64,000 nucleotides of DNA, from NCBI GenBank assembly GCA_021372335.1, contig JAJFUR010000056.1:693-64692 (forward strand), written 5' to 3'. This stretch comes from Methanobacteriota archaeon (lineage in GTDB: Archaea; Thermoplasmatota; Thermoplasmata; Methanomassiliicoccales; UBA472). Each line of letters begins with the position of its first letter. Position 1 is the stretch's first letter. The notes beneath the pieces are model-generated. The model did not search any database. It saw only the letters and a list, made by a program, of their open reading frames with translations, and had not been told where the DNA came from. Positions 4,945 to 61,435 of the stretch are shown piece after piece. The position numbers and the translations under genes are program-made.

Positions 4945-6507
<1,563 letters not shown>

Positions 6508-6640: not shown

Positions 6641-7843
6641 ATGAATGACAACTGCATAGCCGCCGTGAAGGTGAACCAGGACCTTTGCAGCCGGTGCAAG
6701 GTCTGCTACTCCACCTGTCCGTTCGAGGCGATCCGCCAGCGCCCGGACGACGGGCGGATCGAGATCGACATCCAGAAGTGCCAGGTATGCGGGATATGCT
6801 ATAGCGCCTGCCCGGTCTCGGCCATCGAGATGGCCTACTACGACCACGCCGGCCTCCTGGAGCACGTGCGGGCCGCCTGTCCCGGGGCGGAGACGCTGGT
6901 CATGATGTGCCGGGGCAATTCCCCCAGCAGCGGCGAGGTGGAGGATATCCTGGCGGACCATGGCCTGGACGTCAAGGGGTACGTCCCCATGCGCGTCCCG
7001 TGCGCGGGGCGGGTGCCCACGGACCTCATCTTCAATGCCCTGGCCTCCGGGATCAGGAACATCGTGTCGATCCAATGCCAGGACGGCTTCTGCCGCATGA
7101 AGGAGGGCACCCGGATCGAGACCAGGAGGCTGCTCCTCAGCAAGGCGGTGCTGCGGCAGCTCGGGTACCCGGAGGACGCGGTGCAGGTCGTCAAGTACTC
7201 GAGGAAGGCGGTGTGGACCGGCCACGAGTGCGTCGGCTGCGACAAATGCGTCTTCGTCTGCCCGTACGGGGCCATCGAGGCCGGGGCGATCTCGTCCCCC
7301 CGCATCGATCCGGGGAAGTGCGTGGGGTGCGGGGCGTGCCAGGTTGTCTGCCCGCACAACGCCATCCAGGTGAAGGGGTACGAGTTCTATTCCGTGCTGC
7401 GCTCCTACGAGGAGGCGGCGGAGCGGATGCGCAAGGCCGGGCGGCCATCGGTCCTGGTGTTCAGCTGCCAGTGGTCCGAGTTCACCGCGCTGGACGACCC
7501 TGAGGGGGTGTTGGGGGGAAGGAACGCCATGCTACTGGAGGTCCCCTGCTTCAAGGGGCTGGACCCCGTGCACGTGCTCACCGCCCTCCAGAGCGGGTTC
7601 GATGGGGTGATGGGGGTAGTGTGCGCACCCGAGGACTGCAAGCTGAAGAACGGCAGGGACGCCGCGGAGAGGCAGCTCGAGGTGCTCCTGATCGCCCTCA
7701 AGAGGCTGGGGCTTTCGGAGCGCTTCGAGCTGCATGAGCTATCCCCCCGATGCAAGGGGGAGTTCGCCCAGGCGTTCGACGCCTTCTACGCCCGGGTCTC
7801 GGCCATGCCCCGCGGCGGGGCATGCCGCAGGGAGGGGGACTGA
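6641..7843 (+). CDS. Polyferredoxin with two MvhD/FlpD-like domains (architecture Fd-MvhD-Fd-MvhD)
   Basis: Four CxxCxxCxxxCP motifs in two pairs (CSRCKVCYSTCP/CQVCGICYSACP and CVGCDKCVFVCP/CVGCGACQVVCP). Each pair is followed by an MvhD-like segment (..VPCAGRV..GIRNIVSIQCQDGFC.. and ..VPCFKGL..GFDGVMGVVCAPEDC..). Confidence 0.75.
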   Translation: MNDNCIAAVKVNQDLCSRCKVCYSTCPFEAIRQRPDDGRIEIDIQKCQVCGICYSACPVSAIEMAYYDHAGLLEHVRAACPGAETLVMMCRGNSPSSGEVEDILADHGLDVKGYVPMRVPCAGRVPTDLIFNALASGIRNIVSIQCQDGFCRMKEGTRIETRRLLLSKAVLRQLGYPEDAVQVVKYSRKAVWTGHECVGCDKCVFVCPYGAIEAGAISSPRIDPGKCVGCGACQVVCPHNAIQVKGYEFYSVLRSYEEAAERMRKAGRPSVLVFSCQWSEFTALDDPEGVLGGRNAMLLEVPCFKGLDPVHVLTALQSGFDGVMGVVCAPEDCKLKNGRDAAERQLEVLLIALKRLGLSERFELHELSPRCKGEFAQAFDAFYARVSAMPRGGACRREGD

Positions 7844-8683
7844 ATGTACCGGATAGTGGCAAAGGAGCGTCTGGCGTACAAGCACACCTTGTTCACCGTG
7901 GAGGCCCCCGACATCGCCGCCAAGGCAAGGCCGGGGCAGTTCCTGATCGTGGTACCGAAGGAGGGAGGGGAAAGGGTGCCCCTCAGCCTCTGCGCCTACG
8001 ACCAGGAGGCGGGCACGGTCTCGTTCGCCTTCCACGAGGTCGGGAGGACCACGAAGGAGCTCGGAACGCTCCAGGAGGGGGAGGGGCTGTTCAACGTCAC
8101 CGGCCCCCTTGGCAACCCTTCCGAGGTCCGGAGGTACGGCAGGGTGCTGTGCATCGGCGGGGGCATCATGATCGCCCCCGCCCTGCTGCAGGCCAGGGCG
8201 CTGAAGGAGGCGGGGAACGAGGTCATCACCATCCTCGCCTGCCGCAGCGCGGAGTTCCTGTTCAAGAGGGAGGAGGCCGAGCGCGTCAGCGACCGGGTGC
8301 TCATCGCCTCGGACGACGGGACCGTGGGGGAGAGGGGACTGGACTTCCTGACAGACCTTCTTGCCAAGGACCGGATCGACCGTTGCACCGTGATCGGCCC
8401 GGTGGTCATGATGAAGAGGGTCTGCGAGCTCACCCGCCCGTTCGCCGTCCCCACCATCGTCTCCCTGACCCCGATCATGATCGACGGCATGGGCATGTGC
8501 GGGGCGTGCCGGGTGACCGTCGGGGACAGGATGCTCTTCGGATGCGTGGACGGGCCCGAGTTCGACGGCCATAGGACCAACTTCGACGAGCTGATCAAGC
8601 GGCAGCGCAGCATGCTGCCCGAGGAACGCCTCAGCTCCATGCTCTGGGAGCACAAGGGAGGGTGCGCCTGTGGCCGGAGATGA
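7844..8683 (+). CDS. NfnA/SudB-like subunit (PyrK-type FAD/[2Fe-2S] oxidoreductase)
   Basis: PyrK-like fold signature: RPGQFLIV, GPLGNP, CIGGGIMIAP, and a C-terminal cluster motif DGMGMCGACRV..GCVDGPEF. It starts 1 nt after the upstream stop. Confidence 0.8.
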   Translation: MYRIVAKERLAYKHTLFTVEAPDIAAKARPGQFLIVVPKEGGERVPLSLCAYDQEAGTVSFAFHEVGRTTKELGTLQEGEGLFNVTGPLGNPSEVRRYGRVLCIGGGIMIAPALLQARALKEAGNEVITILACRSAEFLFKREEAERVSDRVLIASDDGTVGERGLDFLTDLLAKDRIDRCTVIGPVVMMKRVCELTRPFAVPTIVSLTPIMIDGMGMCGACRVTVGDRMLFGCVDGPEFDGHRTNFDELIKRQRSMLPEERLSSMLWEHKGGCACGRR

Positions 8684-10106
8684 GCCCTCCCGGCGGAGGA
8701 ACGACAGGGCATTGGACGAGGACGTCCCCATGCCGCGCCAGGACCCCAAGGAGCGGGTCAAGAACTTCAAGGAGGTCGCCCTCGGGTACACCGAGGAGAT
8801 GGCGGTGGCGGAGGCCCGGCGCTGCCTCAAATGCAAGAGCCCGCAGTGTCAGAAGGGGTGCCCGGTGGAGGTGCCCATCCCCCAGTTCATCGACTGCATC
8901 GTCCAGGGGAGGTATGAGGAGGGGATAGCCCTCATCAAGTCCAAGAACGCCCTCCCCGCGGTGTGCGGCCGGGTGTGCCCGCAGGAGCAGCAATGCCAGA
9001 TGAACTGCGTCCGGGGCAAGAGGGGCGACCCGGTCAACATCGGTCGCCTGGAGCGCTTCCTGGCGGACTGGGAGCGGGAGCATGGCGTGCGTGTGCCGGA
9101 ACGCCCCGCGGCCACGGGCAGGAGGGTGGCCATCATCGGGGCCGGGCCCTCCGGGCTTACCGCCGCCTCCGACCTCGCCCGGCTGGGCCATGGGGTCACG
9201 CTGTTCGAGGCGCTTCACGTGGCCGGGGGGGTGCTCATGTACGGCATTCCGGAGTTCCGGCTGCCGAAGGAGATCGTGCAGAGGGAGGTGGAGTACGTCC
9301 AGAGCCTTGGCGTAGACCTCCGCCTCGGGAACGTCATAGGGCGCATCGCCACCATCCCCGAGCTGCTGGAACAGGGGTATGATGCGGTATACATAGCGAG
9401 CGGGGCGGGCCTGCCCCAATGGACGGGGTGCCCGGGAGAGAATCTCGGAGGGATCTATTCGGCCAACGAGTTCCTGATCAGGGCCAACCTGATGAAGGCC
9501 TATCGCTTTCCGGAGACCGACACGCCCCTTCGCATAGGCAAGCATGTGGTGGTGATCGGCGGGGGGAACGTGGCCATGGACTGCGCGCGCATCTCCATGC
9601 GGCTGGGGGCGAAGGTGTGCCTGAACTACCGGCGCTCAAGGAACGAGCTGCCCGCCCGGCGCGAGGAGATCGAGAACGCGGAGGAGGAGGGGCTGACCTG
9701 CAACTTCCTCAACGCCCCGGCGGAGTTCTACGGGGACGAGAAAGGGTGGGTGCGGGCGATGCGCTGCACCTGCATGGAGCTCACCGAACCGGACGAGAGG
9801 GGGAGGACGGGGGTGAGGCCCATCGCCTGCTCGGACTTCGAGATGGAGACGGACACCGTGATCGTGGCGATAGGGCAGACGCCCAATCCCATCATCCAGA
9901 GGACGACCGAGGGGCTCAGGACCAATCCCCGGAACGGGACTATCATCGTGGACGAGGACGGCCGGACGAACCTGGAGGGGGTCTTTGCCGGCGGGGACGT
10001 GGCCACGGGGGCGGCCACGGTCATCAGCGCCATGGGCGCCGGGAAGAGGACCGCCAGGGCTATCCATGAATACCTAACGACCGGACCAAGGGGGGACCGT
10101 ACATAG
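8670..10106 (+). CDS. NfnB/SudA/GltD-like subunit (FAD, NADPH, 2x[4Fe-4S])
   Basis: RCLKCKSPQCQKGCPVEVPIP, NALPAVCGRVCPQEQQC, and dinucleotide folds VAIIGAGPSGL and VVVIGGGNVAMDCA. Alternative start at 8730 (MPRQDPKERVKNF). Confidence 0.85.
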   Translation: MAGDEPSRRRNDRALDEDVPMPRQDPKERVKNFKEVALGYTEEMAVAEARRCLKCKSPQCQKGCPVEVPIPQFIDCIVQGRYEEGIALIKSKNALPAVCGRVCPQEQQCQMNCVRGKRGDPVNIGRLERFLADWEREHGVRVPERPAATGRRVAIIGAGPSGLTAASDLARLGHGVTLFEALHVAGGVLMYGIPEFRLPKEIVQREVEYVQSLGVDLRLGNVIGRIATIPELLEQGYDAVYIASGAGLPQWTGCPGENLGGIYSANEFLIRANLMKAYRFPETDTPLRIGKHVVVIGGGNVAMDCARISMRLGAKVCLNYRRSRNELPARREEIENAEEEGLTCNFLNAPAEFYGDEKGWVRAMRCTCMELTEPDERGRTGVRPIACSDFEMETDTVIVAIGQTPNPIIQRTTEGLRTNPRNGTIIVDEDGRTNLEGVFAGGDVATGAATVISAMGAGKRTARAIHEYLTTGPRGDRT

Positions 10107-10117
10107 AGAAGCTGAAG

Positions 10118-11080
10118 GTGGCGTTCTATTGGGCCGCCAGCTGCGGCGGCTGCGAGATAGCGGTCCTGGACACGAACGAGAAGGTCCTGGAGCTGGCGGA
10201 GCACGCGGACATCGTGTTCTGGCCGGTGGCCATGGACATCAAGTACAAGGACGTCGAGGCGTTCCCCGATGGATACGTGGACGTGACCTTCTTCAATGGC
10301 TCCGTGCGGAACAGCGAGCAGGAGCACATGGCGAAGGTCCTGCGGGCGAAGTCGAAGATCCTGGTCGCATTCGGGGCCTGCGCCAACCAGGGCTCCGTCC
10401 CCGGCCTCGCGAACCTATGGTCCGCGGACGAGCTCCTGGACCACGTGTACCTGGAGGTCAGCGGGGGAAGGCACAATGGCTCGGCCGTCCCCAGGCCCGA
10501 GGCCGAGGTGAGGGAGGGCACGCTCCGCCTCCCGGTCCTCTACGACACCGTCAAGACGCTGGACCAGACCGTGGCGGTGGACTATTATCTTCCCGGATGC
10601 CCTCCGCCGGTGGAGCTGATCAAGCGGGCGATCGATGCCATACTGCAGGGGACACTGCCCCCACGGGGGTCCGTGCTCGCCCCCCTCACCGCCGTGTGCG
10701 CGGAATGCCCGCGCAAGCGGGAGGACAAGCGGATCACGGCCATCCATCGGGTGCACGAGGTCGTGCCCGCCCCGGAGCGCTGCCTTATGGAGCAGGGGAT
10801 AGTCTGCATGGGCATGGCCACCCGGGGAGGGTGCGGGGCGCAGTGCCTGAAGGTGGACATGCCCTGCACCGGCTGCGGAGGGCCCGCCCCGAACCGGCCG
10901 GACATGGGGACGGGCATGCTGACCGCCCTGGCATCCATCCTCCACCTGGACAAGGAGCCGGGCACGTACACGGAGGAGGAGGTCATGGAACTCATGGCCC
11001 AGATCAAGGACCCGGTCGGCCTCTTCTACATGTACAGCCTGCCCGCGTCGATCCTCAAGAGGAAGGTGATGAAGCGATGA
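10118..11080 (+). CDS. mvhG: [NiFe]-hydrogenase small subunit, Mvh (group 3) type
   Basis: GTG start. AFYWAASCGGCEIAVLD proximal-cluster motif, GACANQGSVPG, YLPGCPP, and a C-terminal Cys-rich cluster region. Confidence 0.8.
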   Translation: MAFYWAASCGGCEIAVLDTNEKVLELAEHADIVFWPVAMDIKYKDVEAFPDGYVDVTFFNGSVRNSEQEHMAKVLRAKSKILVAFGACANQGSVPGLANLWSADELLDHVYLEVSGGRHNGSAVPRPEAEVREGTLRLPVLYDTVKTLDQTVAVDYYLPGCPPPVELIKRAIDAILQGTLPPRGSVLAPLTAVCAECPRKREDKRITAIHRVHEVVPAPERCLMEQGIVCMGMATRGGCGAQCLKVDMPCTGCGGPAPNRPDMGTGMLTALASILHLDKEPGTYTEEEVMELMAQIKDPVGLFYMYSLPASILKRKVMKR

Positions 11081-12528
11081 AGGAGATCAACATAGACCCG
11101 ATCACCCGGCTGGAGGGGCATGGCAGCATATCCATCTTCCTCAACGACGAGGGAGAGGTGGAGAACGCCTACCTGAAGATCCCCGAGCTCAGGGGGTTCG
11201 AGGCGTTCTGCGTGGGCCGGCCGGCGGAGCTGATGCCCATCCTGACGACGCGCATCTGCGGCGTCTGCCCGGTCGCCCATCACCTGGCGGCCGTCAAGAC
11301 GTTGGACGCGTGCTTCAACGTCGAACCCCCGCCTGCGGCGAGGAAGCTGCGCGAACTCCAGTACATGGGGTACATCTGCTACGACCACATCCTGCACTTC
11401 TACTACCTCGGCGGGCCGGACTTCATCGTGGGGCCGGACGCGCCCCCGGAGAAGAGGAACATCCTGGGCGTGATCGAGAAGGCTGGGATGGACGTGGCCA
11501 AGGACGTCATCCGGCATCGGGCGTACGGGCAGCGGATCACGGAGATCATCGGGGGGAAGGCCACGCACCCCGTCAGCGGGCTTCCAGGGGGGGTGAGCAA
11601 ACCGCTGGACGAGGAGGGGCGCAGGGCCATACTGGACATGGCCAGGTCCCTTGTGGGCTTCGCCCAGTTCTCCCTCGCTACGTTCCATGAGCTGGTGCTC
11701 GGCAACCCCGGGTACATGGACCTCATCCGCAGCGACATGTTCACCCAGAGGACCTACTACATGGGGATGGTGGACGCCCGGAACAGGGTGAGCTTCTGCG
11801 ATGGGAAGGTCAGGGTCGTGGACCCGGCCGGCTCGGAGTTCGCCAAGTTCGATGCCCAGGACTATAAGGAGCACATCGAGGAGCGGTCGGAGGAATGGAC
11901 CTACTCCAAGTTCCCCTTCCTCAGGAAGGTGGGGTGGAAGGGCTTCACCGACGGGAAGGACAACGGCGCCTACAGGGTCGGCCCGCTCGGCCGGTTGAAC
12001 GCCGCGGAGGGGATGGCCACTCCTCTGGCAAACAAGGAGTACCAGGAGCTGTTCTCCCTTTTAGGTAGGCCGGTGCACAGCACCCTGGCCTTCCATTGGG
12101 CGAGGCTCATCGAGCTGCTGTACGCGGCCGAGAGGGCGGTGGAGCTCGCCAGCGACCCGGAGATCACCTCTCCGGACGTGCGGAATATGCCCGGGGAGCC
12201 TGGGCGCGGGGTCGGAATCGTTGAAGCGGCCCGGGGCACCCTGGTGCATGACTATCAGCTCAACAGCGACGCGCTGGTCGAGCGTGTCAACATGATCGTG
12301 GCGACCACCAACAATTACCCGTCCATCTGCATGAGCGTCCGGGATGCCGCCAAAGGGCTGATCCACGGCGGGAAGGTCGACGAACGGGTGCTGAACAAGG
12401 TGGAGATGGCCTTCCGCGCCTACGACCCCTGCTTCGGCTGCGCCACGCACTTCGCCGTGGGGCAGATGCCCCTGGACGTGAAGGTGTACGACCATCGCAA
12501 AGGGCTGCTATGCCAGCTGGGCCGTTGA
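11077..12528 (+). CDS. mvhA: [NiFe]-hydrogenase large subunit, MvhA-like
   Basis: ATGA overlap with the mvhG stop. N-terminal ITRLEGHG, L1 motif RICGVCPVAHHLAAV, and C-terminal DPCFGCATH followed by a cleavable tail. The track ORF 10129-12528 is this frame with a false 316-aa N-terminal extension. Confidence 0.9.
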   Translation: MKEINIDPITRLEGHGSISIFLNDEGEVENAYLKIPELRGFEAFCVGRPAELMPILTTRICGVCPVAHHLAAVKTLDACFNVEPPPAARKLRELQYMGYICYDHILHFYYLGGPDFIVGPDAPPEKRNILGVIEKAGMDVAKDVIRHRAYGQRITEIIGGKATHPVSGLPGGVSKPLDEEGRRAILDMARSLVGFAQFSLATFHELVLGNPGYMDLIRSDMFTQRTYYMGMVDARNRVSFCDGKVRVVDPAGSEFAKFDAQDYKEHIEERSEEWTYSKFPFLRKVGWKGFTDGKDNGAYRVGPLGRLNAAEGMATPLANKEYQELFSLLGRPVHSTLAFHWARLIELLYAAERAVELASDPEITSPDVRNMPGEPGRGVGIVEAARGTLVHDYQLNSDALVERVNMIVATTNNYPSICMSVRDAAKGLIHGGKVDERVLNKVEMAFRAYDPCFGCATHFAVGQMPLDVKVYDHRKGLLCQLGR

Positions 12529-12566
12529 CCGGGAGGGCCGTTCGCCCTCCGGTCCGATGGTAGGGG

Positions 12567-13064
12567 ATGCGGATGGACGAAGGGAAAGAACTGGAGGGCG
12601 CGCTCAGGGAATGGCTCGCCGGGGCGGGAACGGTGGTTGTGGCCGGGATAGGGAATCCCATCCGCCGGGACGACCACGCAGGGGTGAGGGTCGTCGAGGG
12701 GTTGAGGGGCGCCGTCTCGCCGCGCGTGCACCTTATCGAGTGCGAGACGGTGCCGGAGAGCTTCGTGGATGAGATAGTGGATGTCTCCCCGACGCACGTG
12801 CTCCTTATAGATGCAGCCCTCCTCGGCCTCCCCCCCGGGACCGTGGACCTCTATGACGTGGAGGAGGTCGCGGCCACCGCGGGCATAGCGACGCATGCCC
12901 TTCCCCTGCGCGTGCTCTGTGAGTACGTCACCCTGCTCACCGGGGCGAGGATCGCCCTTCTGTTGATCGAGCCGGAGGACACCGGCTTCGGGGAGGGCAT
13001 GACCCCCGGGCTTGAGGCGGCGACCCGACGCACGGTAGGAATGCTGACGGCTTTGCTACCATGA
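12567..13064 (+). CDS. Hydrogenase maturation endopeptidase (HycI/FrhD family)
   Basis: VVAGIGNPIRRDDHAGVRV motif, with the HALPL region later. 165 aa, immediately downstream of the large subunit. Confidence 0.8.
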   Translation: MRMDEGKELEGALREWLAGAGTVVVAGIGNPIRRDDHAGVRVVEGLRGAVSPRVHLIECETVPESFVDEIVDVSPTHVLLIDAALLGLPPGTVDLYDVEEVAATAGIATHALPLRVLCEYVTLLTGARIALLLIEPEDTGFGEGMTPGLEAATRRTVGMLTALLP

Positions 13065-13143
13065 GAACGGATGGGGGGTGCGCAGGGCGACCCTGAAAAA
13101 CCTGTAGCAAAGAGGTTTGTCCGGTGGAAGGGGCACCGTGCGC

Positions 13144-13311
13144 TTACTTGGAGAGCGCGCTGTTCGGGCACTCGTCCACGCAGGTGCCGCACTCGGTGCA
13201 CTTCACGGCGTCGATGACGGCTATATCGTCAACGGTTATGGCCCCGTTAGGGCATGCATCCTCGCAAAGTCCGCAACCAACACACTCGTCCGCATTAACC
13301 TTTACAGCCAT
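13144..13311 (-). CDS. 2x[4Fe-4S] ferredoxin, 55 aa (absent from ORF track)
   Basis: My own translation of the minus strand: [55 protein letters not shown]. It has two CxxCxxCxxxCP motifs and a TATA-like ATATATAC ~40 nt upstream. The plus-strand ORFs 13117-13791 and 13124-13327 are shadows. Confidence 0.85.
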
Positions 13312-52796: not shown

Positions 52797-53756
52797 TCAT
52801 TGATGCGGGCGGGCCTCTTCCGCCTCGATGATCTCCATGTTCCTTTCCAGGAGCGCAAGCTCCCTGGTCTCGAGGGTCCGGGGGTCCACGGATATGATGA
52901 GCCGGGAACGGTTCTCCATGACGGCCTCGGTGACATGATGGACCATCCTCAGCACCTTGTCGAAATCGTTGTTGACTATGAGGAACTCCACGCCGTCTAT
53001 GAGGACGATGCTGTCGCCGCTCTTCTCGACGAAGCGGATGATGGTGTCGCTCAGGATCCCGATGTTGGTGGGGTTCACGTACACCTTCCCCAACTGGTTG
53101 CTGAGCCATATTATCGGGGTCTTCTCGAGCCCCCACTGATTGCGGATGATCGTAGGGTGCTGCCGGGTGACGCATAGACCAGGGATGTTGTGGGTCACCT
53201 GGTCCACGAATATCTCGAAGGACCTGTGCGGCTTGGTTTCTTTCACCAGATAGCTGAACCCCCGGTGCAGCTCGAACATCTTGGCGCTGGTGCGCGCTTC
53301 CTCCACGCCTCCCTTCTCGTCCCTCTTCCGAAGGAGGGAGCGCAGCCCCTTGCGCTCGCTTTCGAGGACCGGCGCCTCCCTGCCCTCGGGCTGGTCCCCA
53401 AGCGCCTTCCTGACCTTCTGGGAGAGTTCATCGTTGGTGAACGGCTTGCGGATGTACCCGGTCACCACGTCCTGCAGCCCGAAGATGTCGGCGCCGATCT
53501 CGGTCGTGGCCGTGAGCATCATTATCTTCATGCCCTCGGTCAGCCCTTTCTCCTTCAAGGTGCGCAGGACCGCCCAGCCATCCATGTCCGGCATGTTTAT
53601 GTCCAGGAGCATCAGGTCCGGCCTCTCCGACTGGACCTTGGCCAGGCATTCCCGGCCGCCGATGGCCGTGAGAGGCTGATAGCCCGCATTGGAGATCAGT
53701 TCGGTGACGATCTCCAGGATGGCGGCATTATCGTCCACGACCAAAACCTTCTTGAT
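52797..53756 (-). CDS. Response-regulator receiver domain fused to a DUF835 domain; start codon unresolved
   Basis: IKKVLVVDDNAAILE..LLDINMPDMDG..KPF receiver motifs, then a DUF835-like C-terminal half. There is no in-frame ATG or GTG between the L40e stop (53870) and the receiver beta-1 strand. Candidates are ATC 53756 and TTG 53744. Confidence 0.7.
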   Translation of the reverse strand: MKKVLVVDDNAAILEIVTELISNAGYQPLTAIGGRECLAKVQSERPDLMLLDINMPDMDGWAVLRTLKEKGLTEGMKIMMLTATTEIGADIFGLQDVVTGYIRKPFTNDELSQKVRKALGDQPEGREAPVLESERKGLRSLLRKRDEKGGVEEARTSAKMFELHRGFSYLVKETKPHRSFEIFVDQVTHNIPGLCVTRQHPTIIRNQWGLEKTPIIWLSNQLGKVYVNPTNIGILSDTIIRFVEKSGDSIVLIDGVEFLIVNNDFDKVLRMVHHVTEAVMENRSRLIISVDPRTLETRELALLERNMEIIEAEEARPHQ

Positions 53757-53869
53757 TCGAATTCCCCCAGTGCCTAGAGCAATGAGGCATGCACTCCCCT
53801 GATTAAAAATCCTATCCCATGGAATCAGCTTGGGAGAATGGTGCGGAGGAAGGAGTTTGCGGCCCTTGC

Positions 53870-54019
53870 TTAGGCCTTGCGGCTCTCCTTGGCCTTCATA
53901 CGCAACGAGGTGTATCCGCACTTGCGGCACCTGGTGGCCTTGACGGCGTTACGGGCATAGCAGCTGAGGCAGACCTTCTTGTTCAGCAGCCTTTCGTCAG
54001 CTTCTTTGAAGCGTGCCAT
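53870..54019 (-). CDS. rpl40e: Ribosomal protein L40e (49 aa; absent from ORF track)
   Basis: My own translation: [49 protein letters not shown]. It has a C4 zinc ribbon, with a TTTATATC box and a GAGAGGGG SD upstream. Confidence 0.9.
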
Positions 54020-57344: not shown

Positions 57345-57457
57345 AAGGTCACTTGCACCCTCATAAAAGGAGGGGATTAAATAGGTTGGCCTCTGCCCTG
57401 AAGGACCGCAGGTCAAATGATTTATTAGCTGGCAACCCTTGCCTTTGCCGGAGAGGA

Positions 57458-60400
57458 ATGAGCGAGGCAGAGCGATTGGTCTCCGATAGGGCCGAGGTGT
57501 GGAAGGGCAGGTTGTTGGACGTTTCCAACCGCAATCCTCTCATCAGGTTCCGCCGGTTAAAGGGCTCGGTGCTGAGCGTTGTCCTCCCCGACGCCGCCAC
57601 CCTGTTCAGCGAGCTGAGGCAGGGACGGCAGTACACCGTGGTGCATTCCCCTGAGCCTCTGGAGGAGGCCGGGACCGGCCGGCTCATGGTCGCCGCCCAG
57701 GTCCCCGAGCAGCCCGTGGACAAGGTCCTCTACACCCTCCGCAGTAGGGCGCGCATCTACCGCAATGACCATGGGGTGAACATATTGTACGTGGCGTTCG
57801 GCTCGCTCCTTTGGAACGATGCCAGTTCTGGAGAGACCAACGAATCCCCGCTCTTCCTGGTGCCCGTGGCCCTTGAGCGGCAGAACTCCTTCACCCCCTA
57901 TCGCTTGCAGCCACTGGACGAGGACACGGTCCTCAACCCGAGCCTGCGGAAGCGGCTGGAGCTGGACCACCGGATCCGGCTTCCGGAGATCGAGCTGGAG
58001 AACGGGCTCGACCTGCCGAAAGCCATGGGGATGGTGGCGGCCGCGATCCCGCCGGCGTCCGGATGGAGGGTAGAGGGCTCCTGCCACCTGGCCCTTTTCC
58101 ATTTCTCCAAGCTCCTCATGTACTCGGACCTTGAGCAGGGGGCCGGAACGCTGTCCTCGCATCCGGTCATAAGGGCATTGGCAGGGGACCCTGCGGCCCT
58201 TCCGCCCGAGCCTTCCGGCCTCCCGCGTCCGGAGGAGTACGACTCCAAGCTCAGGCCGGAGGATTCCTTTCATGTCCTGGACTCGGACTCGAGCCAGCTC
58301 GAGGCGGTGCAGGCAGCCCTGGCCGGCGTCAGCTTCGTCCTGCAAGGCCCGCCCGGCACTGGAAAGAGCCAGACGATCACCAACATGATCTCGGAGCTCA
58401 TCGCCCATGGGAAGCGTGTGCTCTTCGTCTCGCAGAAGATGGCCGCCCTGGACGTGGTGCGGGGGAACCTCGAGCGGTGCGGGCTAGGCGACATGTGCCT
58501 GGAGCTGCATGACCCCAAGAGGAGCAGGGCGGAGATCATCAAGGAGATAGCGACCGGCCTGGAAGATGCTGGACGATCGGGCGGCGCGGCCGTCGACGCC
58601 CAAGAGCTCGTCGAGGTCCGCCGGGAACTCGATGGGTACGTCAGGGCGTTGCATATGCCCCGAGGGAGGCTTGGCACCAGCGTGTACAGGATGATCGGCC
58701 AATACGCTGAGCTCACCGGGACGCCGGACCTATGCTTTGATCTGCCTGGCGCGCTGGAGGTGGACGAAGAACGGGCGAGGCGTATGGAGGGGACGGTCCT
58801 CCGCCTATCCCAGATGGCCTCGGCCTTCAGGGAACCCACCCATCCATGGGCGGGCGCCCTGGTCACCGAGTGGAGCGACCGGCTGCAGGCCAAGGTGCAG
58901 GAGGAGCTCTCCGCATTGATGGCCGCCCACGGGCGGCTCTGCACGGCGCTCCCGGCATTGACGATCCCCTTCGGTCTGCCCGAGCCGGTGTCCCTCCCGG
59001 AAGTGCGCCGGCTCCGCCAGCTGTTCAAAGACATGGCCGAGCGACCAAGGGTCCGCCGGGAATGGCTCGAGGGGGACCTCGACCTGCTGATGACCATGGT
59101 AAGGGATGGGCTCGCCTCCTTCCAGGACCTCTTGGGGAAAGAGGGCAGGCTGTCGGGGATGGGGGCCCGGGACATCCTCGACCTGGACGGACGTGGTCTG
59201 CGCCATAGGTTTGACGGAGAGCACACCGGCCCGTTCCGGGCGCTGAAGGGGCGCTATCGACAGGACATGCGGACGCTGCGGACGGCCTCCGGGCGTCGCC
59301 TCAGCTTTGAGGAGGCCCGGTTCCTGGTCCGTGCGGTGGACGACTACCAACAGGCGTTGGCGGCCTGGAAGGTGCGCCGGGACGCCCTTATGACCGCCCT
59401 GCGGGGAGAGTTCTTAGGGGACGGCCAGGAGCTGGAGGCGCTGTCCGAGCGACTGGAATGGACCAAGGCATTCCGTTCCAAGCACGCCCTTTTGATGAGC
59501 GAGCGGGTGATCGACGCGGTCACGGCCGAAGAGATACCACGGGAGGTCGGGCAGGGGGCGATGGAACTGGAGCTGCGCATGGACGACCTAGACGCCGCCT
59601 TGAGCGCCTTCGCGGCCCGCTTCACCGCGGACCTTCGCCTCAATGGACGGCCCCTCCAGGATGCGGCGCTCAAGGACCTTGAGGAATGGACGGAGAGGGC
59701 CTGGGCCTGCCGCCACAGGTACCAGGAATGGCTGGACCTCTCCTCCCTCCTTTTGGCCATGCGGGCCCTGGGGCTCGAAGGGCTGCTCAAGGAGCTGCGG
59801 GAGGGCTCCCTACCTCCCGAGGACTTTGTGAAGGGCTTCCAACGGCGGTTCTACAGGCTATGGACCGAGGAGGCCCTGGCCTCCGATCCTACGCTTACAG
59901 GTTTCCGTCGGGACCGCCAGATGGGGCTGATAGCGCGCTTCGACGAGCTTGACCGGAAGTACGTGGAGGGGAGCAGGGCGCGCGTGCGAGCCCGCGCGGA
60001 GGCCAACCTGAGGAGGGAGATGGAGGGCCCGGCCCACTCCATGCTCCTCAAGCAGGAGATGGAGATCGCCCGCCTGTCCAAGCTGAAGCGGCAGCGGAAG
60101 GCCATCAAGGCAATGCTGGCCGAGTGCTGGGACCTCGTTGGGCTGCTCAAGCCTTGCATGCTCATGAGCCCGCTCTCCGTGGCCCAGTTCCTGGACAGGG
60201 AAAGGACGCGCTTTGACGTTATCATCTTCGATGAGGCGTCCCAGATCTGCCCCGAGGATGCCATAGGCTCGATCGTCAGGGGGAGGCAGCTCATCGTGGT
60301 GGGGGACAGCAAGCAGCTGCCCCCCACCTCGTTCTTCGCCCTCGCGGCCGAGGACGAGGACGCCGAACCGGACCTTGAGAGCATCCTCGACGAGTGCGAG

Positions 60401-61435
60401 ACCTGTGGGATGCCTCGGCGTATGTTGATGTGGCACTATCGCTCCAAGGACGAGTCGCTGATCGCATTCTCCAATCATCAGTTCTATGGCGGAAGGCTGA
60501 ACACCTTCCCGAGCCCCCTCTTCGGGCGGGAGGGCTACGGTGTCCATCATGTCCTCGTTCCCAACGGGACCTTCGACCGGGGAAGGACCAGAACCAACAG
60601 GGAGGAGGCGAGGGCGGTCGCGGGAATGGTCCGCGACCATTACGCCCTGAAGGACGGGAGGAGCCTCGGGGTGATCGCCTTCTCGGAGGCGCAGATGGAG
60701 GCCATCGACCAGGCGTTGGACGAGCTGAGAAGTGGGGACGAGAAGCTGGACGCGGCGCTGTCCTCGGAGGAGGGGGAGCCGTTCCTGCTGTATAACCTCG
60801 AGAACGTGCAGGGGCATGAGCGGGACCGCATCATCCTGAGCGTCGGCTACGGAAGGGATGAGAACGGCAGATTCCCGTTGAACCTGGGGCCGCTGAACAG
60901 GGAGGGAGGGGAAAGGAGGCTGAACGTCGCGATCACCAGGGCGCGGCTCTGTTTGGACGTGGTCTCCTCCGTCCGGTCCGAGGAGATCGACCTAGGGGGC
61001 TCGAGCAGCGCCGGGGCCCGGCTGCTCAAGCAGTACCTGGCCTTTGCAGAGGCCGGAGGGGACCGCCGGGCGCTGCCGGTCCAATCGGATAGGCTCCGGG
61101 AGGACCCGTCCCCGTTCGTGGAACATCTGGCCAAGGCCTTGCAGGCCAGGGGGCACCGGGTGCGAACGAATGTGGGGACGTCCGACTACCGCGTGGACCT
61201 GGCCATCGAGGACCCTGCCGAGGAGGGGAGATATATATTGGGCATCGAGTGCGACGGCGCCCATTACCTTTCCGGAAGGACTGTTCGGGATAGGGACCGC
61301 ACCCGCCAGGGGCAGCTTAGGAGGCTTGGCTGGACGCTGCACCGTGTCTGGAGCGTCGAATGGTTCCGGGATCCGGAGGGGGAGATGGAGAGGATAGAGG
61401 AGGCGCTGCGCGCTAGGGGGCGATGCGCCCCTTGA
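57458..61435 (+). CDS. Large SF1 (Upf1/DNA2-like) helicase with a DUF4011-type N-terminus and a C-terminal PD-(D/E)xK (DUF559/Vsr-like) nuclease fold
   Basis: N-terminus LLDVSNRNPLIRF. Walker A GPPGTGKSQT, motif II IIFDEASQI, VVGDSKQLPP, WHYRSKDESL, VQGHERDRIILS, LNVAITRAR. C-terminal YRVDLAI..ILGIECDGAHY..RDRDRTRQGQLRRLGW. 1325 aa from ATG 57458 (GGAGAGGA SD). Confidence 0.8.
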   Translation: MSEAERLVSDRAEVWKGRLLDVSNRNPLIRFRRLKGSVLSVVLPDAATLFSELRQGRQYTVVHSPEPLEEAGTGRLMVAAQVPEQPVDKVLYTLRSRARIYRNDHGVNILYVAFGSLLWNDASSGETNESPLFLVPVALERQNSFTPYRLQPLDEDTVLNPSLRKRLELDHRIRLPEIELENGLDLPKAMGMVAAAIPPASGWRVEGSCHLALFHFSKLLMYSDLEQGAGTLSSHPVIRALAGDPAALPPEPSGLPRPEEYDSKLRPEDSFHVLDSDSSQLEAVQAALAGVSFVLQGPPGTGKSQTITNMISELIAHGKRVLFVSQKMAALDVVRGNLERCGLGDMCLELHDPKRSRAEIIKEIATGLEDAGRSGGAAVDAQELVEVRRELDGYVRALHMPRGRLGTSVYRMIGQYAELTGTPDLCFDLPGALEVDEERARRMEGTVLRLSQMASAFREPTHPWAGALVTEWSDRLQAKVQEELSALMAAHGRLCTALPALTIPFGLPEPVSLPEVRRLRQLFKDMAERPRVRREWLEGDLDLLMTMVRDGLASFQDLLGKEGRLSGMGARDILDLDGRGLRHRFDGEHTGPFRALKGRYRQDMRTLRTASGRRLSFEEARFLVRAVDDYQQALAAWKVRRDALMTALRGEFLGDGQELEALSERLEWTKAFRSKHALLMSERVIDAVTAEEIPREVGQGAMELELRMDDLDAALSAFAARFTADLRLNGRPLQDAALKDLEEWTERAWACRHRYQEWLDLSSLLLAMRALGLEGLLKELREGSLPPEDFVKGFQRRFYRLWTEEALASDPTLTGFRRDRQMGLIARFDELDRKYVEGSRARVRARAEANLRREMEGPAHSMLLKQEMEIARLSKLKRQRKAIKAMLAECWDLVGLLKPCMLMSPLSVAQFLDRERTRFDVIIFDEASQICPEDAIGSIVRGRQLIVVGDSKQLPPTSFFALAAEDEDAEPDLESILDECETCGMPRRMLMWHYRSKDESLIAFSNHQFYGGRLNTFPSPLFGREGYGVHHVLVPNGTFDRGRTRTNREEARAVAGMVRDHYALKDGRSLGVIAFSEAQMEAIDQALDELRSGDEKLDAALSSEEGEPFLLYNLENVQGHERDRIILSVGYGRDENGRFPLNLGPLNREGGERRLNVAITRARLCLDVVSSVRSEEIDLGGSSSAGARLLKQYLAFAEAGGDRRALPVQSDRLREDPSPFVEHLAKALQARGHRVRTNVGTSDYRVDLAIEDPAEEGRYILGIECDGAHYLSGRTVRDRDRTRQGQLRRLGWTLHRVWSVEWFRDPEGEMERIEEALRARGRCAP

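What the first reader, a model, noticed from the sequence alone, without database searches (positions are those of the whole stretch)
6641..13311. Mvh-type [NiFe]-hydrogenase operon fused to an NfnAB/SudAB-like module instead of Hdr: a possible new H2:NADP+/ferredoxin (bi/con)furcating complex
Six same-strand genes are packed with gaps of 0, -14, +11, -4 and +38 nt. They are: a polyferredoxin with two MvhD-like domains; a PyrK/NfnA-like FAD-[2Fe-2S] subunit; a GltD/NfnB-like FAD/NADPH subunit; an MvhG-like small subunit; an MvhA-like large subunit (RICGVCPVAHHLAAV ... DPCFGCATH); and a maturation endopeptidase. A 55-aa 2x[4Fe-4S] ferredoxin gene converges on the operon's 3' end. In characterised systems, group 3c Mvh passes electrons via MvhD to the bifurcating FAD of HdrA, while NfnAB is a free-standing transhydrogenase. 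No hdrABC occurs anywhere in this 64-kb window. The gene order therefore suggests that MvhD-like/polyferredoxin modules wire the hydrogenase to the bifurcating flavin of an Nfn-like pair. Such a complex would couple H2 to NADP+ and ferredoxin. I am not aware of a biochemically characterised complex with this subunit set.
Basis: partly seen in the sequence, partly recalled or inferred. Interest (0 to 1): 0.85.

Follow-up and report, generated by a model that had tools for sequence, protein, structure and literature searches.

The report
Hydrogenase operon wired to Nfn-like flavoprotein
A six-gene operon conserved in uncultured relatives of gut and sediment methanogens joins a hydrogen-splitting enzyme, through a dedicated iron-sulfur connector protein, to an NADPH-handling flavoprotein pair of the electron-splitting "Nfn" type; I found no description of this combination, and it may let these archaea exchange electrons between trace hydrogen, ferredoxin and NADPH.

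Summary
Window 6641-13064 carries six tightly packed same-strand genes: a 400-aa connector built as 2 x (two-[4Fe-4S] ferredoxin domain + MvhD-like domain), NfnA-like, NfnB-like, MvhG-like, MvhA-like, and a HycI-type protease. A 55-aa ferredoxin gene converges on the 3' end.

The hydrogenase is Mvh/Vhu type (group 3c), not 3b. The Nfn-like pair is 44-57% identical to crystallised NfnAB and keeps every cluster, FAD and NADPH ligand. The exception is the NfnA-like subunit, where a bulky Met/Trp always replaces a glycine of the NAD-site motif.

The six-gene order holds in all 21 Methanomassiliicoccales species-level genomes with enough contig, despite differing flanks. The conserved core is the connector-NfnA-NfnB trio, found in 258 species genomes (the 80 inspected are mostly Bathyarchaeia and Methanomassiliicoccales). 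In other lineages the trio sits beside hdrC-hdrB, an hdrA::mvhD fusion, hyp genes or NADPH-thioredoxin reductase. "Instead of Hdr" is therefore overstated: the connector looks like a hub.

Best reading (about 0.4): hydrogenase replaces NAD(H) in an Nfn-type reaction, H2 + reduced ferredoxin + 2 NADP+ <-> 2 NADPH. The rivals are a non-bifurcating H2:NADP+ enzyme and an Hdr-containing supercomplex. I found no published description. This is a new variant of a known kind.

The parts
6641..7843 (+). Connector 'polyferredoxin' (400 aa). It is a tandem duplication of [2x[4Fe-4S] ferredoxin domain + MvhD-like [2Fe-2S] domain]. Predicted cofactors: 4 [4Fe-4S] and 2 [2Fe-2S].
   Evidence: Pfam finds Fer4 x4 and FlpD x2. 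Residues 194-389 match the C-terminal ferredoxin+MvhD part of HdrA2 (NF040770 positions 576-771, E 2.6e-45). Twenty-four Cys are invariant in 86 family members: four CxxCxxCxxxC motifs plus C90/C121/C146/C151 and C276/C303/C328/C333. The two halves are 27% identical, E 3e-12. The AF2 model has pLDDT 69, and its best Foldseek hit is MvhD 5odc_D with TM 0.75.
7844..8683 (+). NfnA/NfnS-like subunit (279 aa). FAD and the [2Fe-2S] cluster are retained; the NAD-site glycine motif is altered.
   Evidence: 254 bits to P. furiosus NfnI-S 5jca_S and 234 bits to T. maritima NfnA 4ylf_A, 44% identity to each. The ERxPL(S/T) FAD motif and the D-x3-C-x2-C...C [2Fe-2S] motif are conserved. The NAD-site motif reads GG(S/G)(I/V)M-IAP where NfnA has GGGVG(V/I)A. 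Asn218 of NfnI-S is an invariant Thr here.
8670..10106 (+). NfnB/NfnL-like subunit (478 aa; alternative start ATG 8730). Two [4Fe-4S] clusters, FAD and an NADPH site.
   Evidence: 529 bits and 57% identity to T. maritima NfnB 4ylf_B. The eight cluster Cys, Glu128 (GRLERF), GxGxxG, GGGNxAMD and YRR are conserved in at least 99% of 75 sequences, most of them in all. The Arg333 equivalent (ELPAR) and a long N-terminus are present, and nfnA lies upstream.
10118..11080 (+). MvhG-type [NiFe]-hydrogenase small subunit (320 aa, three [4Fe-4S]).
   Evidence: VhuG 204 bits. 5odc_E MvhG 225 bits over the full length, against 65-75 bits for HydS, SH1-delta and HoxY. Twelve Cys are invariant.
11077..12528 (+). 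MvhA-type [NiFe]-hydrogenase large subunit (483 aa), with a C-terminal extension that the protease removes.
   Evidence: VhuA 407 bits, ShyA 171, HydA 124. PDB scores: 7t2r_D 374, 9sfi_g 365, 5odc_F 354, 5xf9_D 334, SH1 alpha about 96-103. Ligand Cys 61, 64, 452 and 455 are invariant. The L1 and L2 motifs match those listed for MvhA in PMC6085437.
12567..13064 (+). HycI-type hydrogenase maturation endopeptidase.
   Evidence: PF01750 and TIGR00072. It follows mvhA in all 21 complete Methanomassiliicoccales operons. In Bathyarchaeia it also follows nfnB or hdrB where mvhGA is absent.
13144..13311 (-). 55-aa 2x[4Fe-4S] ferredoxin, convergent on the operon. It is a candidate low-potential partner; whether it belongs to the system is uncertain.
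   Evidence: Pfam Fer4 x2. It lies convergent downstream in 8 close relatives and upstream on the same strand in 3 others, and is absent near the operon in the remaining Methanomassiliicoccales loci.

Best explanation
The operon encodes one soluble complex. An Mvh-type (group 3c) [NiFe]-hydrogenase dimer, MvhA/MvhG, is matured by the HycI protease. It docks on a dedicated connector protein, which carries two copies of the ferredoxin-domain + MvhD unit that forms the hydrogenase entry port of HdrA/MvhD. This Fe-S wire runs into an NfnAB (NfnSL)-type flavoprotein pair.

NfnB-like binds NADP(H) at a flavin that keeps the sequence marks of the bifurcating L-FAD, with two [4Fe-4S] clusters leading out to ferredoxin. 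NfnA-like keeps its FAD and [2Fe-2S] but has lost the glycine of its NAD(H) pocket. The connector and hydrogenase therefore take the place of NAD+/NADH as the 'high-potential branch' partner.

The net reaction is reversible: H2 + reduced ferredoxin + 2 NADP+ <-> 2 NADPH + oxidised ferredoxin. In cells living at a few Pa of H2, the likely direction is NADPH formation.

Shown here: gene content, ligands, conserved synteny, 3c type, altered NAD motif. Inferred: physical complex, docking site, ferredoxin as third substrate, direction.
For: 1. Tight operon, conserved in 21 of 21 Methanomassiliicoccales species loci with different flanks. No separate mvhD gene is present, so the connector is the only MvhD-type partner encoded with MvhAG.

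2. The connector-nfnA-nfnB trio is adjacent, with gaps of roughly 0-40 nt in most, in every inspected locus that has room and intact reading frames, across three subfamilies down to 44% identity.

3. NfnB-like is 57% identical to T. maritima NfnB. Its cluster, FAD and NADPH ligands are conserved in at least 99% of the family. It also shows the three features that PMC12221290 uses to separate bifurcating NfnB from plain Fnor: a long N-terminus, Arg333, and nfnA upstream.

4. NfnA-like has an invariant Met (Trp in some B-type members) where NfnA and NfnI-S have Gly in GGGVGxA, and Thr for Asn218 above the S-FAD. NfnII, which cannot use NAD(H), also has a degenerate motif.

5. NADPH-consuming enzymes are neighbours in two lineages. 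NADP-specific GDH lies divergently upstream in the window and at the same relative position in 14 related loci. A canonical thioredoxin reductase lies directly upstream in 59 of 83 loci.

6. Thermodynamics, from established values and my own arithmetic: H2 at 10 Pa is about -296 mV, close to cellular NAD+/NADH (about -280 mV). H2 + Fdred (about -500 mV) averages about -400 mV, enough to reduce NADP+ at about -370 mV. H2 alone is not enough.
Against: - There is no biochemical, structural or transcript evidence. I could not model the multimer, and the connector model is of only moderate confidence (pLDDT 69).
- The NAD-motif argument rests on three reference structures.
- P. furiosus NfnII shows that an Nfn pair with a blocked NAD site can be simply non-bifurcating.
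- The trio often lacks adjacent mvhGA, and elsewhere pairs with hdrCB or an MTHFR-type partner. MvhD-like domains therefore do not always imply a hydrogenase.
- The small ferredoxin lies beside the operon in only 11 loci of about 26.
- HdrBC encoded elsewhere in this genome could be part of the complex and would change the reaction.
Confidence: 0.4

Rival explanations
1. Same complex, but non-bifurcating. Electrons from H2 pass MvhAG -> connector -> the [4Fe-4S] clusters of NfnB-like -> FAD -> NADP+, or the reverse. The NfnA-like subunit is structural or vestigial, as in P. furiosus NfnII. The enzyme would then be a functional analogue of group 3b/3d NAD(P)-linked hydrogenases built on a 3c hydrogenase.
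For: - NfnII has a blocked NAD site and is a monofunctional Fd:NADP+ oxidoreductase. The NAD motif here is likewise altered.
- The connector is itself a polyferredoxin and could occupy the ferredoxin site of NfnB-like.
- NADPH consumers are neighbours.
- The small ferredoxin gene is not consistently linked.
Against: - NfnB-like keeps Arg333, the long N-terminus and an upstream nfnA. All three are absent from plain Fnor enzymes.
- NfnA-like keeps its FAD and [2Fe-2S] ligands under strong conservation across more than 79 sequences. That is unexpected for a vestige.
- At environmental H2 of 1-10 Pa, H2 alone cannot reduce NADP+ at cellular ratios (my arithmetic from standard potentials).
Confidence: 0.2
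2. The operon is only part of a larger Mvh-Hdr-type machine. HdrB/HdrC, encoded elsewhere in this genome, also plug into the connector, so connector + NfnAB stand where HdrA + MvhD stand in cultured Methanomassiliicoccales. Two reactions are possible: NADPH-dependent (bifurcating) reduction of a heterodisulfide plus ferredoxin or H+; or H2-driven reduction of heterodisulfide coupled to NADP+ reduction.
For: - In cultured relatives the gene order is hdrA-mvhD-mvhG-mvhA, with hdrBC apart. Here connector-nfnA-nfnB occupies exactly that slot.
- The order connector-nfnA-nfnB-hdrC-hdrB(-hycI) occurs in a complete Ca. Bathyarchaeum genome and in 20 of 20 related contigs with room.
- One contig reads connector-hdrC-hdrB-mvhG.
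- hdrC-hdrB-mvhG-mvhA, with no mvhD or hdrA nearby, lies in the same MAG that carries the trio on another contig.
- The connector's second half matches the HdrA2 C-terminus.
Against: - No hdr gene lies in the 64-kb window or within 10 kb of the operon in any Methanomassiliicoccales locus.
- hdrA::mvhD genes coexist with the trio in nine bathyarchaeal loci, so the trio is not a general HdrA substitute.
- The L-FAD of NfnB has only two Fe-S neighbours plus the NADP(H) site. It therefore cannot copy HdrA's three-way junction for H2-derived electrons (inference from published Nfn structures).
- A gap of about 150 nt separates nfnB and hdrC in L093.
Confidence: 0.25
3. The trio works without the hydrogenase, for example as a ferredoxin/NADPH oxidoreductase with a built-in polyferredoxin, or with another donor acting through the MvhD-like domains. 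Its position next to mvhGA in Methanomassiliicoccales would then reflect co-regulation or operon shuffling.
For: - The trio stands alone, with unrelated flanks, in L095 and L098. It lacks adjacent mvhGA in 56 of the 57 loci inspected outside Methanomassiliicoccales.
- MvhD modules serve non-hydrogenase complexes: MetFV-HdrABC-MvhD and HdrA2.
- A third connector subfamily is coupled to an MTHFR-type gene.
Against: - An 11-nt gap and 4-nt overlaps link nfnB-mvhG-mvhA in 21 species.
- MvhAG has no other MvhD-type partner in the operon.
- Even where mvhGA is absent, the trio is flanked by hycI or hypFCABD in many loci.
Confidence: 0.1

Closest known systems
MvhADG-HdrABC (H2:heterodisulfide/ferredoxin bifurcating complex of methanogens; PDB 5ODC)
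   Same: - The hydrogenase dimer is of the same type: MvhG 225 bits and MvhA 354 bits.
- It uses the same MvhD fold (Foldseek TM 0.75).
- The ferredoxin domain next to MvhD resembles HdrA's C-terminal ferredoxin domain.
- The operon occupies the position of hdrA-mvhD-mvhG-mvhA in cultured Methanomassiliicoccales.
   Different: - There is no HdrA (no thioredoxin-reductase-like FAD domain) and no HdrBC in the operon or the window.
- MvhD is not free-standing. It is duplicated and fused into a 400-aa connector.
- The flavoprotein is an NfnAB pair with an NADPH site.
[quoted passage not shown]
   Same: - 44-57% identity.
- nfnA lies upstream of nfnB with a 14-nt overlap.
- All Fe-S, FAD and NADPH ligands are present, as are Arg333 and the long N-terminus.
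   Different: - The NAD-site glycine motif of the small subunit carries Met or Trp, and Asn218 is Thr.
- The pair was never free-standing in the loci inspected: a connector gene lay directly upstream in every one, though those loci were themselves found through the connector or HdrB.
- In this lineage it is co-operonic with a hydrogenase.
P. furiosus NfnII (XfnAB; PDB 5VJ7)
   Same: An Nfn paralogue whose small subunit cannot use NAD(H) and has a degenerate glycine motif.
   Different: - NfnII blocks the site with an extra loop and an Arg, and was shown to be non-bifurcating.
- It has no connector or hydrogenase partner.
- It is much less similar to the window protein: 180 bits, against 254 for NfnI-S.
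[quoted passage not shown]
   Same: It combines an NfnB-like NAD(P)H module with Mvh/Hdr-type bifurcation parts in archaea, including Bathyarchaeia.
   Different: - There the NfnB-like domain is inserted into HdrA and no NfnA is involved.
- Here NfnA and NfnB are separate subunits with a separate connector, and HdrA is absent from the operon.
Group 3b sulfhydrogenase (SH I, HydABGD) and group 3d Hox: NAD(P)-linked [NiFe]-hydrogenases
   Same: - All are soluble hydrogenases linked to a pyridine nucleotide.
- SH I gamma is also a PyrK-like FAD/[2Fe-2S] protein, distantly related to NfnA-like (46 bits).
   Different: - The large and small subunits here are far from 3b (about 96-124 and 68 bits).
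- The small subunit has three clusters, unlike HoxY and HydS.
- There is no AsrA-like beta subunit and no NuoEFG-like diaphorase.
MetFV-HdrABC-MvhD and FlxABCD-HdrABC (MvhD-containing non-hydrogenase bifurcating complexes)
   Same: - MvhD-type modules act as Fe-S connectors between a flavoprotein core and exchangeable partners.
- A third connector subfamily is followed by an MTHFR-type gene.
   Different: Those complexes use HdrA as the bifurcating flavoprotein and a single MvhD or FlxD.

Membership tests
Group 3c [NiFe]-hydrogenase (Mvh/Vhu) | Large-subunit L1/L2 motifs (xRICGxCxxxH ... DPCxxCxxH) and best match to MvhA/VhuA models | tested here: met
   RICGVCPVAHH and DPCFGCATH are present and match the motifs listed in PMC6085437. 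VhuA is the best NCBIfam model at 407 bits, although that is below its 800-bit equivalog cut-off. PDB scores alone do not separate 3c from 3d or HydL: 335-374 bits to each.
Group 3c [NiFe]-hydrogenase (Mvh/Vhu) | MvhG-type small subunit with three [4Fe-4S] clusters | tested here: met
   320 aa with 12 invariant Cys. 225 bits to MvhG 5odc_E over the full length, against 65-75 bits to the one-cluster HydS and HoxY and to SH1 delta.
Group 3c [NiFe]-hydrogenase (Mvh/Vhu) | MvhD [2Fe-2S] subunit as electron exit | tested here: inconclusive
   There is no free-standing mvhD. Two MvhD-like domains, each with four invariant Cys, are fused into the connector. Docking to MvhG was not testable here.
Group 3c [NiFe]-hydrogenase (Mvh/Vhu) | Functional partner HdrABC | tested here: inconclusive
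   No hdr gene lies in the window or within 10 kb in any Methanomassiliicoccales locus. In Bathyarchaeia, hdrCB lies next to orthologous mvhGA or next to the trio.
NfnAB / NfnSL transhydrogenase | NfnB: two [4Fe-4S] (7 Cys + Glu type ligation), bifurcating FAD, NADPH site, Arg333, long N-terminus, nfnA directly upstream | tested here: met
   Eight Cys, Glu128, GxGxxG, GGGNxAMD, YRR and ELPAR are conserved in at least 99% of the family, most of them in all. There are 47-53 residues before the first Cys. nfnA overlaps nfnB by 14 nt.
NfnAB / NfnSL transhydrogenase | NfnA: FAD and Asp/Cys3 [2Fe-2S] | tested here: met
   ERxPL(S/T), EVGKTT and IDGxGMCGxCRV...C motifs are conserved in 79 sequences.
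NfnAB / NfnSL transhydrogenase | NfnA: NAD(H) binding site (glycine-rich GGGxGxA turn) and NAD(H) as third substrate | tested here: not met
   The motif reads GG(S/G)(I/V)M-IAP in all A-type members and M or W in B-type members, against GGGVG(V/I)A in 4ylf_A and 5jca_S. The consequence for binding is inferred. I therefore do not file this as a canonical NADH-dependent Nfn.
NfnAB / NfnSL transhydrogenase | Free-standing heterodimer | tested here: not met
   A connector gene lies directly upstream in every locus inspected, although these loci were retrieved with the connector or with HdrB as bait.
Group 3b sulfhydrogenase | 3b-type alpha/delta subunits plus AsrA-like beta and PyrK-like gamma | tested here: not met
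   ShyA scores 171 and HydA 124 bits, against VhuA 407. SH1 alpha scores about 96-103 bits and SH1 delta 68 bits. There is no AsrA-like beta subunit.
Group 3d Hox / NiFe-HydABCSL (Bfu type) | One-cluster small subunit and NuoE/F/G-like diaphorase subunits | tested here: not met
   The small subunit has three clusters and is MvhG-like. No NuoEFG-like gene is present in the operon.
HdrA | Thioredoxin-reductase-like FAD domain with N-terminal and inserted ferredoxin domains | tested here: not met
   The connector matches only the C-terminal ferredoxin + MvhD part of HdrA2 (profile positions 576-771 of 777). No FAD domain is found.

The most novel reading that the evidence does not exclude
The connector-NfnAB trio is a previously unrecognised, widespread flavin-based bifurcation core of Bathyarchaeia and Methanomassiliicoccales. 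In it, the NAD(H) site of Nfn has been replaced by an Fe-S 'socket', the double ferredoxin-MvhD connector, which accepts exchangeable redox modules. With the Mvh hydrogenase plugged in, as in this window, it would be the first NfnSL-type bifurcating enzyme wired directly to a hydrogenase: an 'H2-dependent Nfn' that makes NADPH from trace H2 plus reduced ferredoxin. With HdrBC plugged in, as in the Bathyarchaeum type, it would be an NADPH-dependent heterodisulfide/ferredoxin reductase.
Probability: 0.35. Interest if true: 0.85.

Novelty: new variant of a known kind. Interest (0 to 1): 0.72.

Why it matters
Only a handful of flavin-based electron-bifurcating enzyme classes are known, and each new wiring has changed how the energy budgets of anaerobes are drawn. 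Until now, MvhADG has been shown to work only with HdrABC (PMC6085437), and NfnAB only as a free transhydrogenase.

A conserved complex joining the two would give Bathyarchaeia and uncultured Methanomassiliicoccales a direct link between H2, ferredoxin and NADPH. Bathyarchaeia are among the most abundant sediment archaea, and Methanomassiliicoccales are methane producers in guts, wetlands and digesters. Such a link would explain how these organisms make biosynthetic NADPH at H2 pressures where H2 alone cannot reduce NADP+.

It would also show that the bifurcating Nfn core is modular, with a hydrogenase or HdrBC standing in for NAD. The prediction is directly testable by expressing five structural genes.

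Tried and rejected
- Group 3d / Bfu-type NiFe-HydABCSL: the large subunit scores slightly higher to A. mobile HydL (374 bits) than to MvhA. The small subunit is clearly MvhG-like, however, and no NuoEFG genes are present. Rejected.
- Canonical NADH-dependent Nfn: rejected, because the NAD-site motif is not met.
- 'The trio replaces HdrA everywhere': rejected, because hdrA::mvhD genes lie beside the trio in nine bathyarchaeal loci.
- Literature: ten full-text searches found no description of this subunit set. The terms covered MvhD/NfnAB/hydrogenase, Methanomassiliicoccales/Nfn, MvhAG/NfnAB, group 3c/NADP, Bathyarchae/Nfn/Mvh, sulfide dehydrogenase/F420-non-reducing hydrogenase, MvhD/GltD, NfnII and Bathyarchaeum. 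The nearest hits are the HdrA-NfnB fusions. The 2017 NfnII JBC paper is not held.
- Structure: the connector alone gave only pLDDT 69. The tools return no coordinates and no multimer mode, so cofactor distances and the docking site could not be examined.
- The promoter/terminator scan was not run, because the tool does not cover archaeal signals. The only note is an A/T-rich TTAAATAATAA at 6493-6503 in the divergent intergenic region.

Full report
**1. What is there**

The genes are 6641-7843, 7844-8683, 8670-10106, 10118-11080, 11077-12528 and 12567-13064, all on the + strand. The gaps are 0, -14, +11, -4 and +38 nt. A 55-aa gene on the - strand lies at 13144-13311. GC content is like the surroundings, 0.64-0.67.

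Pfam and NCBIfam assign the products as follows:
- Gene 1: four Fer4 stretches plus two FlpD/MvhD stretches.
- Gene 2: the sulfide/dihydroorotate-dehydrogenase-like FAD protein NF004862, 335 bits.
- Gene 3: TIGR01316, 595 bits.
- Gene 4: VhuG, 204 bits.
- Gene 5: VhuA, 407 bits.
- Gene 6: HycI.

The source is an uncultured Methanomassiliicoccales-type archaeon. An identical operon lies on a 118-kb JGI contig. The 20 largest other ORFs of the window are housekeeping genes. Neither Pfam nor tblastn with bathyarchaeal HdrB and HdrC finds Hdr or Mcr in the window.

**2. The hydrogenase is Mvh type, not 3b**

The small subunit decides this. It scores 225 bits over its full length to MvhG of the crystallised Mvh-Hdr complex. 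It scores only 65-75 bits to the one-cluster HydS and HoxY and to SH1 delta. It has 12 invariant Cys, enough for three clusters.

The large subunit scores 335-365 bits to Mvh/Vhu A, 374 to the A. mobile NiFe-HydABCSL large subunit, and 334 to HoxH. It scores only about 96-103 to SH1 alpha. The ShyA and HydA models reach 171 and 124 bits against 407 for VhuA.

The 3c assignment rests on three things: the small subunit, the MvhD-type partner and the VhuA model. The large-subunit PDB scores alone do not separate 3c from 3d. The four Ni-Fe Cys are invariant, and a C-terminal extension after DPCFGCATH fits the adjacent protease.

**3. The Nfn-like pair is a close relative of real NfnAB, with one systematic change**

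NfnB-like is 57% identical to T. maritima NfnB (529 bits). NfnA-like is 44% identical to both P. furiosus NfnI-S and T. maritima NfnA.

In 75 family members of NfnB-like, the following are conserved in at least 99% of sequences, most of them in all:
- the eight cluster Cys;
- Glu128 in GRLERF;
- the FAD GxGxxG;
- the NADPH motifs GGGNxAMD and YRR.

A 2025 study separates bifurcating NfnB from plain ferredoxin:NADP+ reductases by three features: a long N-terminus, Arg333 and an upstream nfnA (PMC12221290). All three are present here. There are 47-53 residues before the first Cys, ELPAR is invariant, and nfnA overlaps nfnB by 14 nt.

NfnA-like keeps the FAD motifs and the Asp/Cys3 [2Fe-2S] motif. 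Its glycine-rich turn differs, however. It reads GG(S/G)(I/V)M-IAP in all 79 A-type sequences, and carries M or W in more distant members. T. maritima NfnA and P. furiosus NfnI-S have GGGVG(V/I)A. Asn218, which lies over the S-FAD in NfnI, is an invariant Thr.

P. furiosus NfnII cannot use NAD(H), and it also has a degenerate turn, IGAYTGIVE. Kinetic work has shown it to be non-bifurcating (PMC12506544). I infer that the Met/Trp blocks NAD(H). This rests on three reference structures and is not shown.

**4. The connector**

Gene 1 has 24 invariant Cys. Four CxxCxxCxxxC motifs account for sixteen, and two four-Cys sets in the MvhD-like domains account for the other eight. Its two halves are 27% identical (E 3e-12), which indicates an old tandem duplication.

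The second half matches the C-terminal ferredoxin domain plus fused MvhD of HdrA2, profile positions 576-771. PDB hits include the C-terminal ferredoxin domain of HdrA, and MvhD. An AF2 model of moderate quality (pLDDT 69) finds MvhD as its best fold match, TM 0.75.

The protein is therefore two copies of the unit through which MvhAG feeds HdrA.

**5. Conservation and context**

The connector family has more than 1,500 clusters at 90% identity with E <= 1e-10. It occurs in 258 species-representative genomes. The best 80 are all MAGs, nearly all labelled Methanomassiliicoccales or Bathyarchaeia.

tblastn of the window proteins against these loci gave the following:
- Connector-nfnA-nfnB are adjacent wherever the contig allows and the reading frames are intact.
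- mvhG-mvhA-hycI follow directly in 21 of 21 Methanomassiliicoccales loci with room.
- They follow in only one of the 57 other loci, which are nearly all labelled Bathyarchaeia. That locus is L076, where mvhGA lies 3 kb away behind an ADP-forming acetyl-CoA synthetase gene.

In Bathyarchaeia the trio has other conserved neighbours:
- A canonical NADPH thioredoxin reductase lies directly upstream in 59 of 83 loci. It has the CGxC and HRRDxFRA motifs and scores above the TIGR01292 cut-off.
- hypF, hypC and hypD lie downstream in about 30 loci.

In the window the divergent upstream gene is an NADP-specific glutamate dehydrogenase (770 bits). A conserved ~444-aa homologue, confirmed as ELFV-type GDH in L001 and L006, holds that position in 14 related loci. 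Two different NADPH consumers thus sit next to the module in two lineages.

**6.

- The closest bathyarchaeal large subunit (76% identical) lies in hdrC-hdrB-mvhG-mvhA-hycI, with overlapping genes and no mvhD. The same MAG (DYS_6) carries the trio on another contig.
- A more distant connector subfamily (44% identical) in a complete Ca. Bathyarchaeum genome reads hyp genes | connector-nfnA-nfnB-hdrC-hdrB-x-hycI.
- A metagenome scan with HdrB found the same order in 20 of 20 related contigs with room. A second HdrB group reads (hdrA)-hdrC-hdrB-mvhG-mvhA-hycI.
- One contig reads connector-hdrC-hdrB-mvhG, with no nfnAB between.
- Other loci read hdrA::mvhD-trxR-connector-nfnA-nfnB-hycI, or carry a divergent hdrA::mvhD 2-5 kb away.
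- Two loci have the trio alone.
- A third connector subfamily is followed, with a 4-nt overlap, by a DUF5981+MTHFR protein and has no nfnAB.

Connector-NfnAB, HdrCB and MvhGA are thus pairwise neighbours in different lineages. The connector behaves as a hub.

In cultured Methanomassiliicoccales the order is hdrA-mvhD-mvhG-mvhA, with hdrBC elsewhere (PMC4153887). In the window lineage, connector-nfnA-nfnB occupies the hdrA-mvhD slot.

**7. Mechanism**

My best reading is that MvhAG docks on an MvhD-like domain of the connector. The connector's Fe-S chain then enters the Nfn-like pair at the former NAD(H) side of the small subunit.

NADP(H) reacts at the L-FAD of NfnB-like. The two [4Fe-4S] clusters of NfnB-like serve ferredoxin, possibly the neighbouring 55-aa protein. 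That gene lies beside the operon in 11 loci, in two different positions.

The net reaction is H2 + Fdred + 2 NADP+ <-> 2 NADPH + Fdox.

The thermodynamic logic rests on standard values and my own arithmetic:
- H2 at 10 Pa is about -296 mV, close to cellular NADH (about -280 mV).
- Together with Fdred at about -500 mV, it can drive NADP+ reduction at about -370 mV.
- H2 alone cannot do this.

Shown: parts, ligands, synteny, the altered motif. Inferred: the complex itself, the docking side, ferredoxin involvement, and direction. I give this reading 0.4.

The rivals are:
- The same complex but non-bifurcating, NfnII-like (0.2).
- A larger machine that also contains HdrBC, with connector + NfnAB in the place of HdrA + MvhD (0.25).
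- A trio that works independently of the hydrogenase (0.1).

**8. Known or new**

Ten full-text searches found no description of this subunit set.
- Nfn reviews list no hydrogenase-linked [NiFe] context.
- Bathyarchaeal MAG papers annotate 'sud/nfn', mvh and hdr separately.
- The nearest published ideas are HdrA proteins with an inserted NfnB/GltD domain, in ANME-1 and next to mvhADG in Bathyarchaeota. Both are predictions.

I therefore rate this a new variant of a known kind: known modules in an undescribed, widely conserved wiring. Every inference about function awaits a genome census, a multimer model and enzyme assays.

Noticed in passing
window 4945-6387 (-): An NADP-specific glutamate dehydrogenase (NF006929, 770 bits) is transcribed divergently from the operon. 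A conserved ~444-aa homologue, confirmed as GDH by Pfam in two of them, occupies the same position in 14 related loci. It is an NADPH consumer next to a putative NADPH-forming enzyme.
   Followed up: partly
L059 3064-4002, and the equivalent position in 59 of 83 loci (e.g. L012 6966-7898): In Bathyarchaeia a canonical NADPH-type thioredoxin-disulfide reductase lies directly upstream of the connector on the same strand. It has the CGxC, GGGNSA and HRRDxFRA motifs and scores 348 bits to TIGR01292. A 33%-identical TrxR-like gene lies divergently upstream in 5-6 Methanomassiliicoccales loci.
   Followed up: partly
L094 8001-10834: A third connector subfamily, about 39% identical to the window's, is followed with a 4-nt overlap by a 539-aa DUF5981+MTHFR protein, and no nfnAB is present. 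The double ferredoxin-MvhD protein may be a general connector, as in MetFV-HdrABC-MvhD.
   Followed up: partly
L093 8001-14618 (CP070820, Ca. Bathyarchaeum sp.), and L099-L122: The order connector-nfnA-nfnB-hdrC-hdrB-(hycI) occurs without mvhGA. The hydrogenase protease directly follows hdrB in many contigs, as if mvhGA had been excised from an ancestral eight-gene cluster.
   Followed up: partly
L176 26-3572: An A-type connector, cut at the contig start, is followed by hdrC-hdrB-mvhG with no nfnAB between them. This is the only such case seen.
   Followed up: no
L003 3264-7224 (-): A 3b-like hydrogenase with a fused beta-gamma subunit (638 aa: Fer4_22 + FAD_binding_6 + NAD_binding_1 + DHODB_Fe-S_bind) lies divergently next to hdrC-hdrB-mvhG-mvhA in a bathyarchaeal MAG.
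   Followed up: no
PMC4153887 Table 6 (M. luminyensis B10): The table lists hdrB2 as WP_019176125, hdrC2 as WP_019176126 and mvhD3 as WP_019176130. The run of accession numbers suggests a connector-nfnAB-hdrCB cluster in a cultured strain.
   Followed up: no
window 57353-61435 (+): A 1360-aa protein carries DUF4011, AAA_11/AAA_12 helicase and REase_MTES_1575 nuclease domains. It is possibly a defence or repair helicase-nuclease.
   Followed up: no
window 52797-53930 (-): A response-regulator receiver domain is fused to DUF835. A DUF835 protein also lies near the operon in L008.
   Followed up: no
window 8670 vs 8730: The nfnB start is ambiguous: GTG at 8670 (14-nt overlap with nfnA) or an in-frame ATG 60 nt downstream. 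Gene callers chose differently in relatives, giving products of 453 to 486 aa.
   Followed up: partly
window vs JGI contig Ga0228535_1000433 (L001): The coordinate offsets imply that the 64-kb window runs past the end of the 118-kb JGI contig that carries the identical operon. The window therefore comes from another assembly of the same or a near-identical organism.
   Followed up: no
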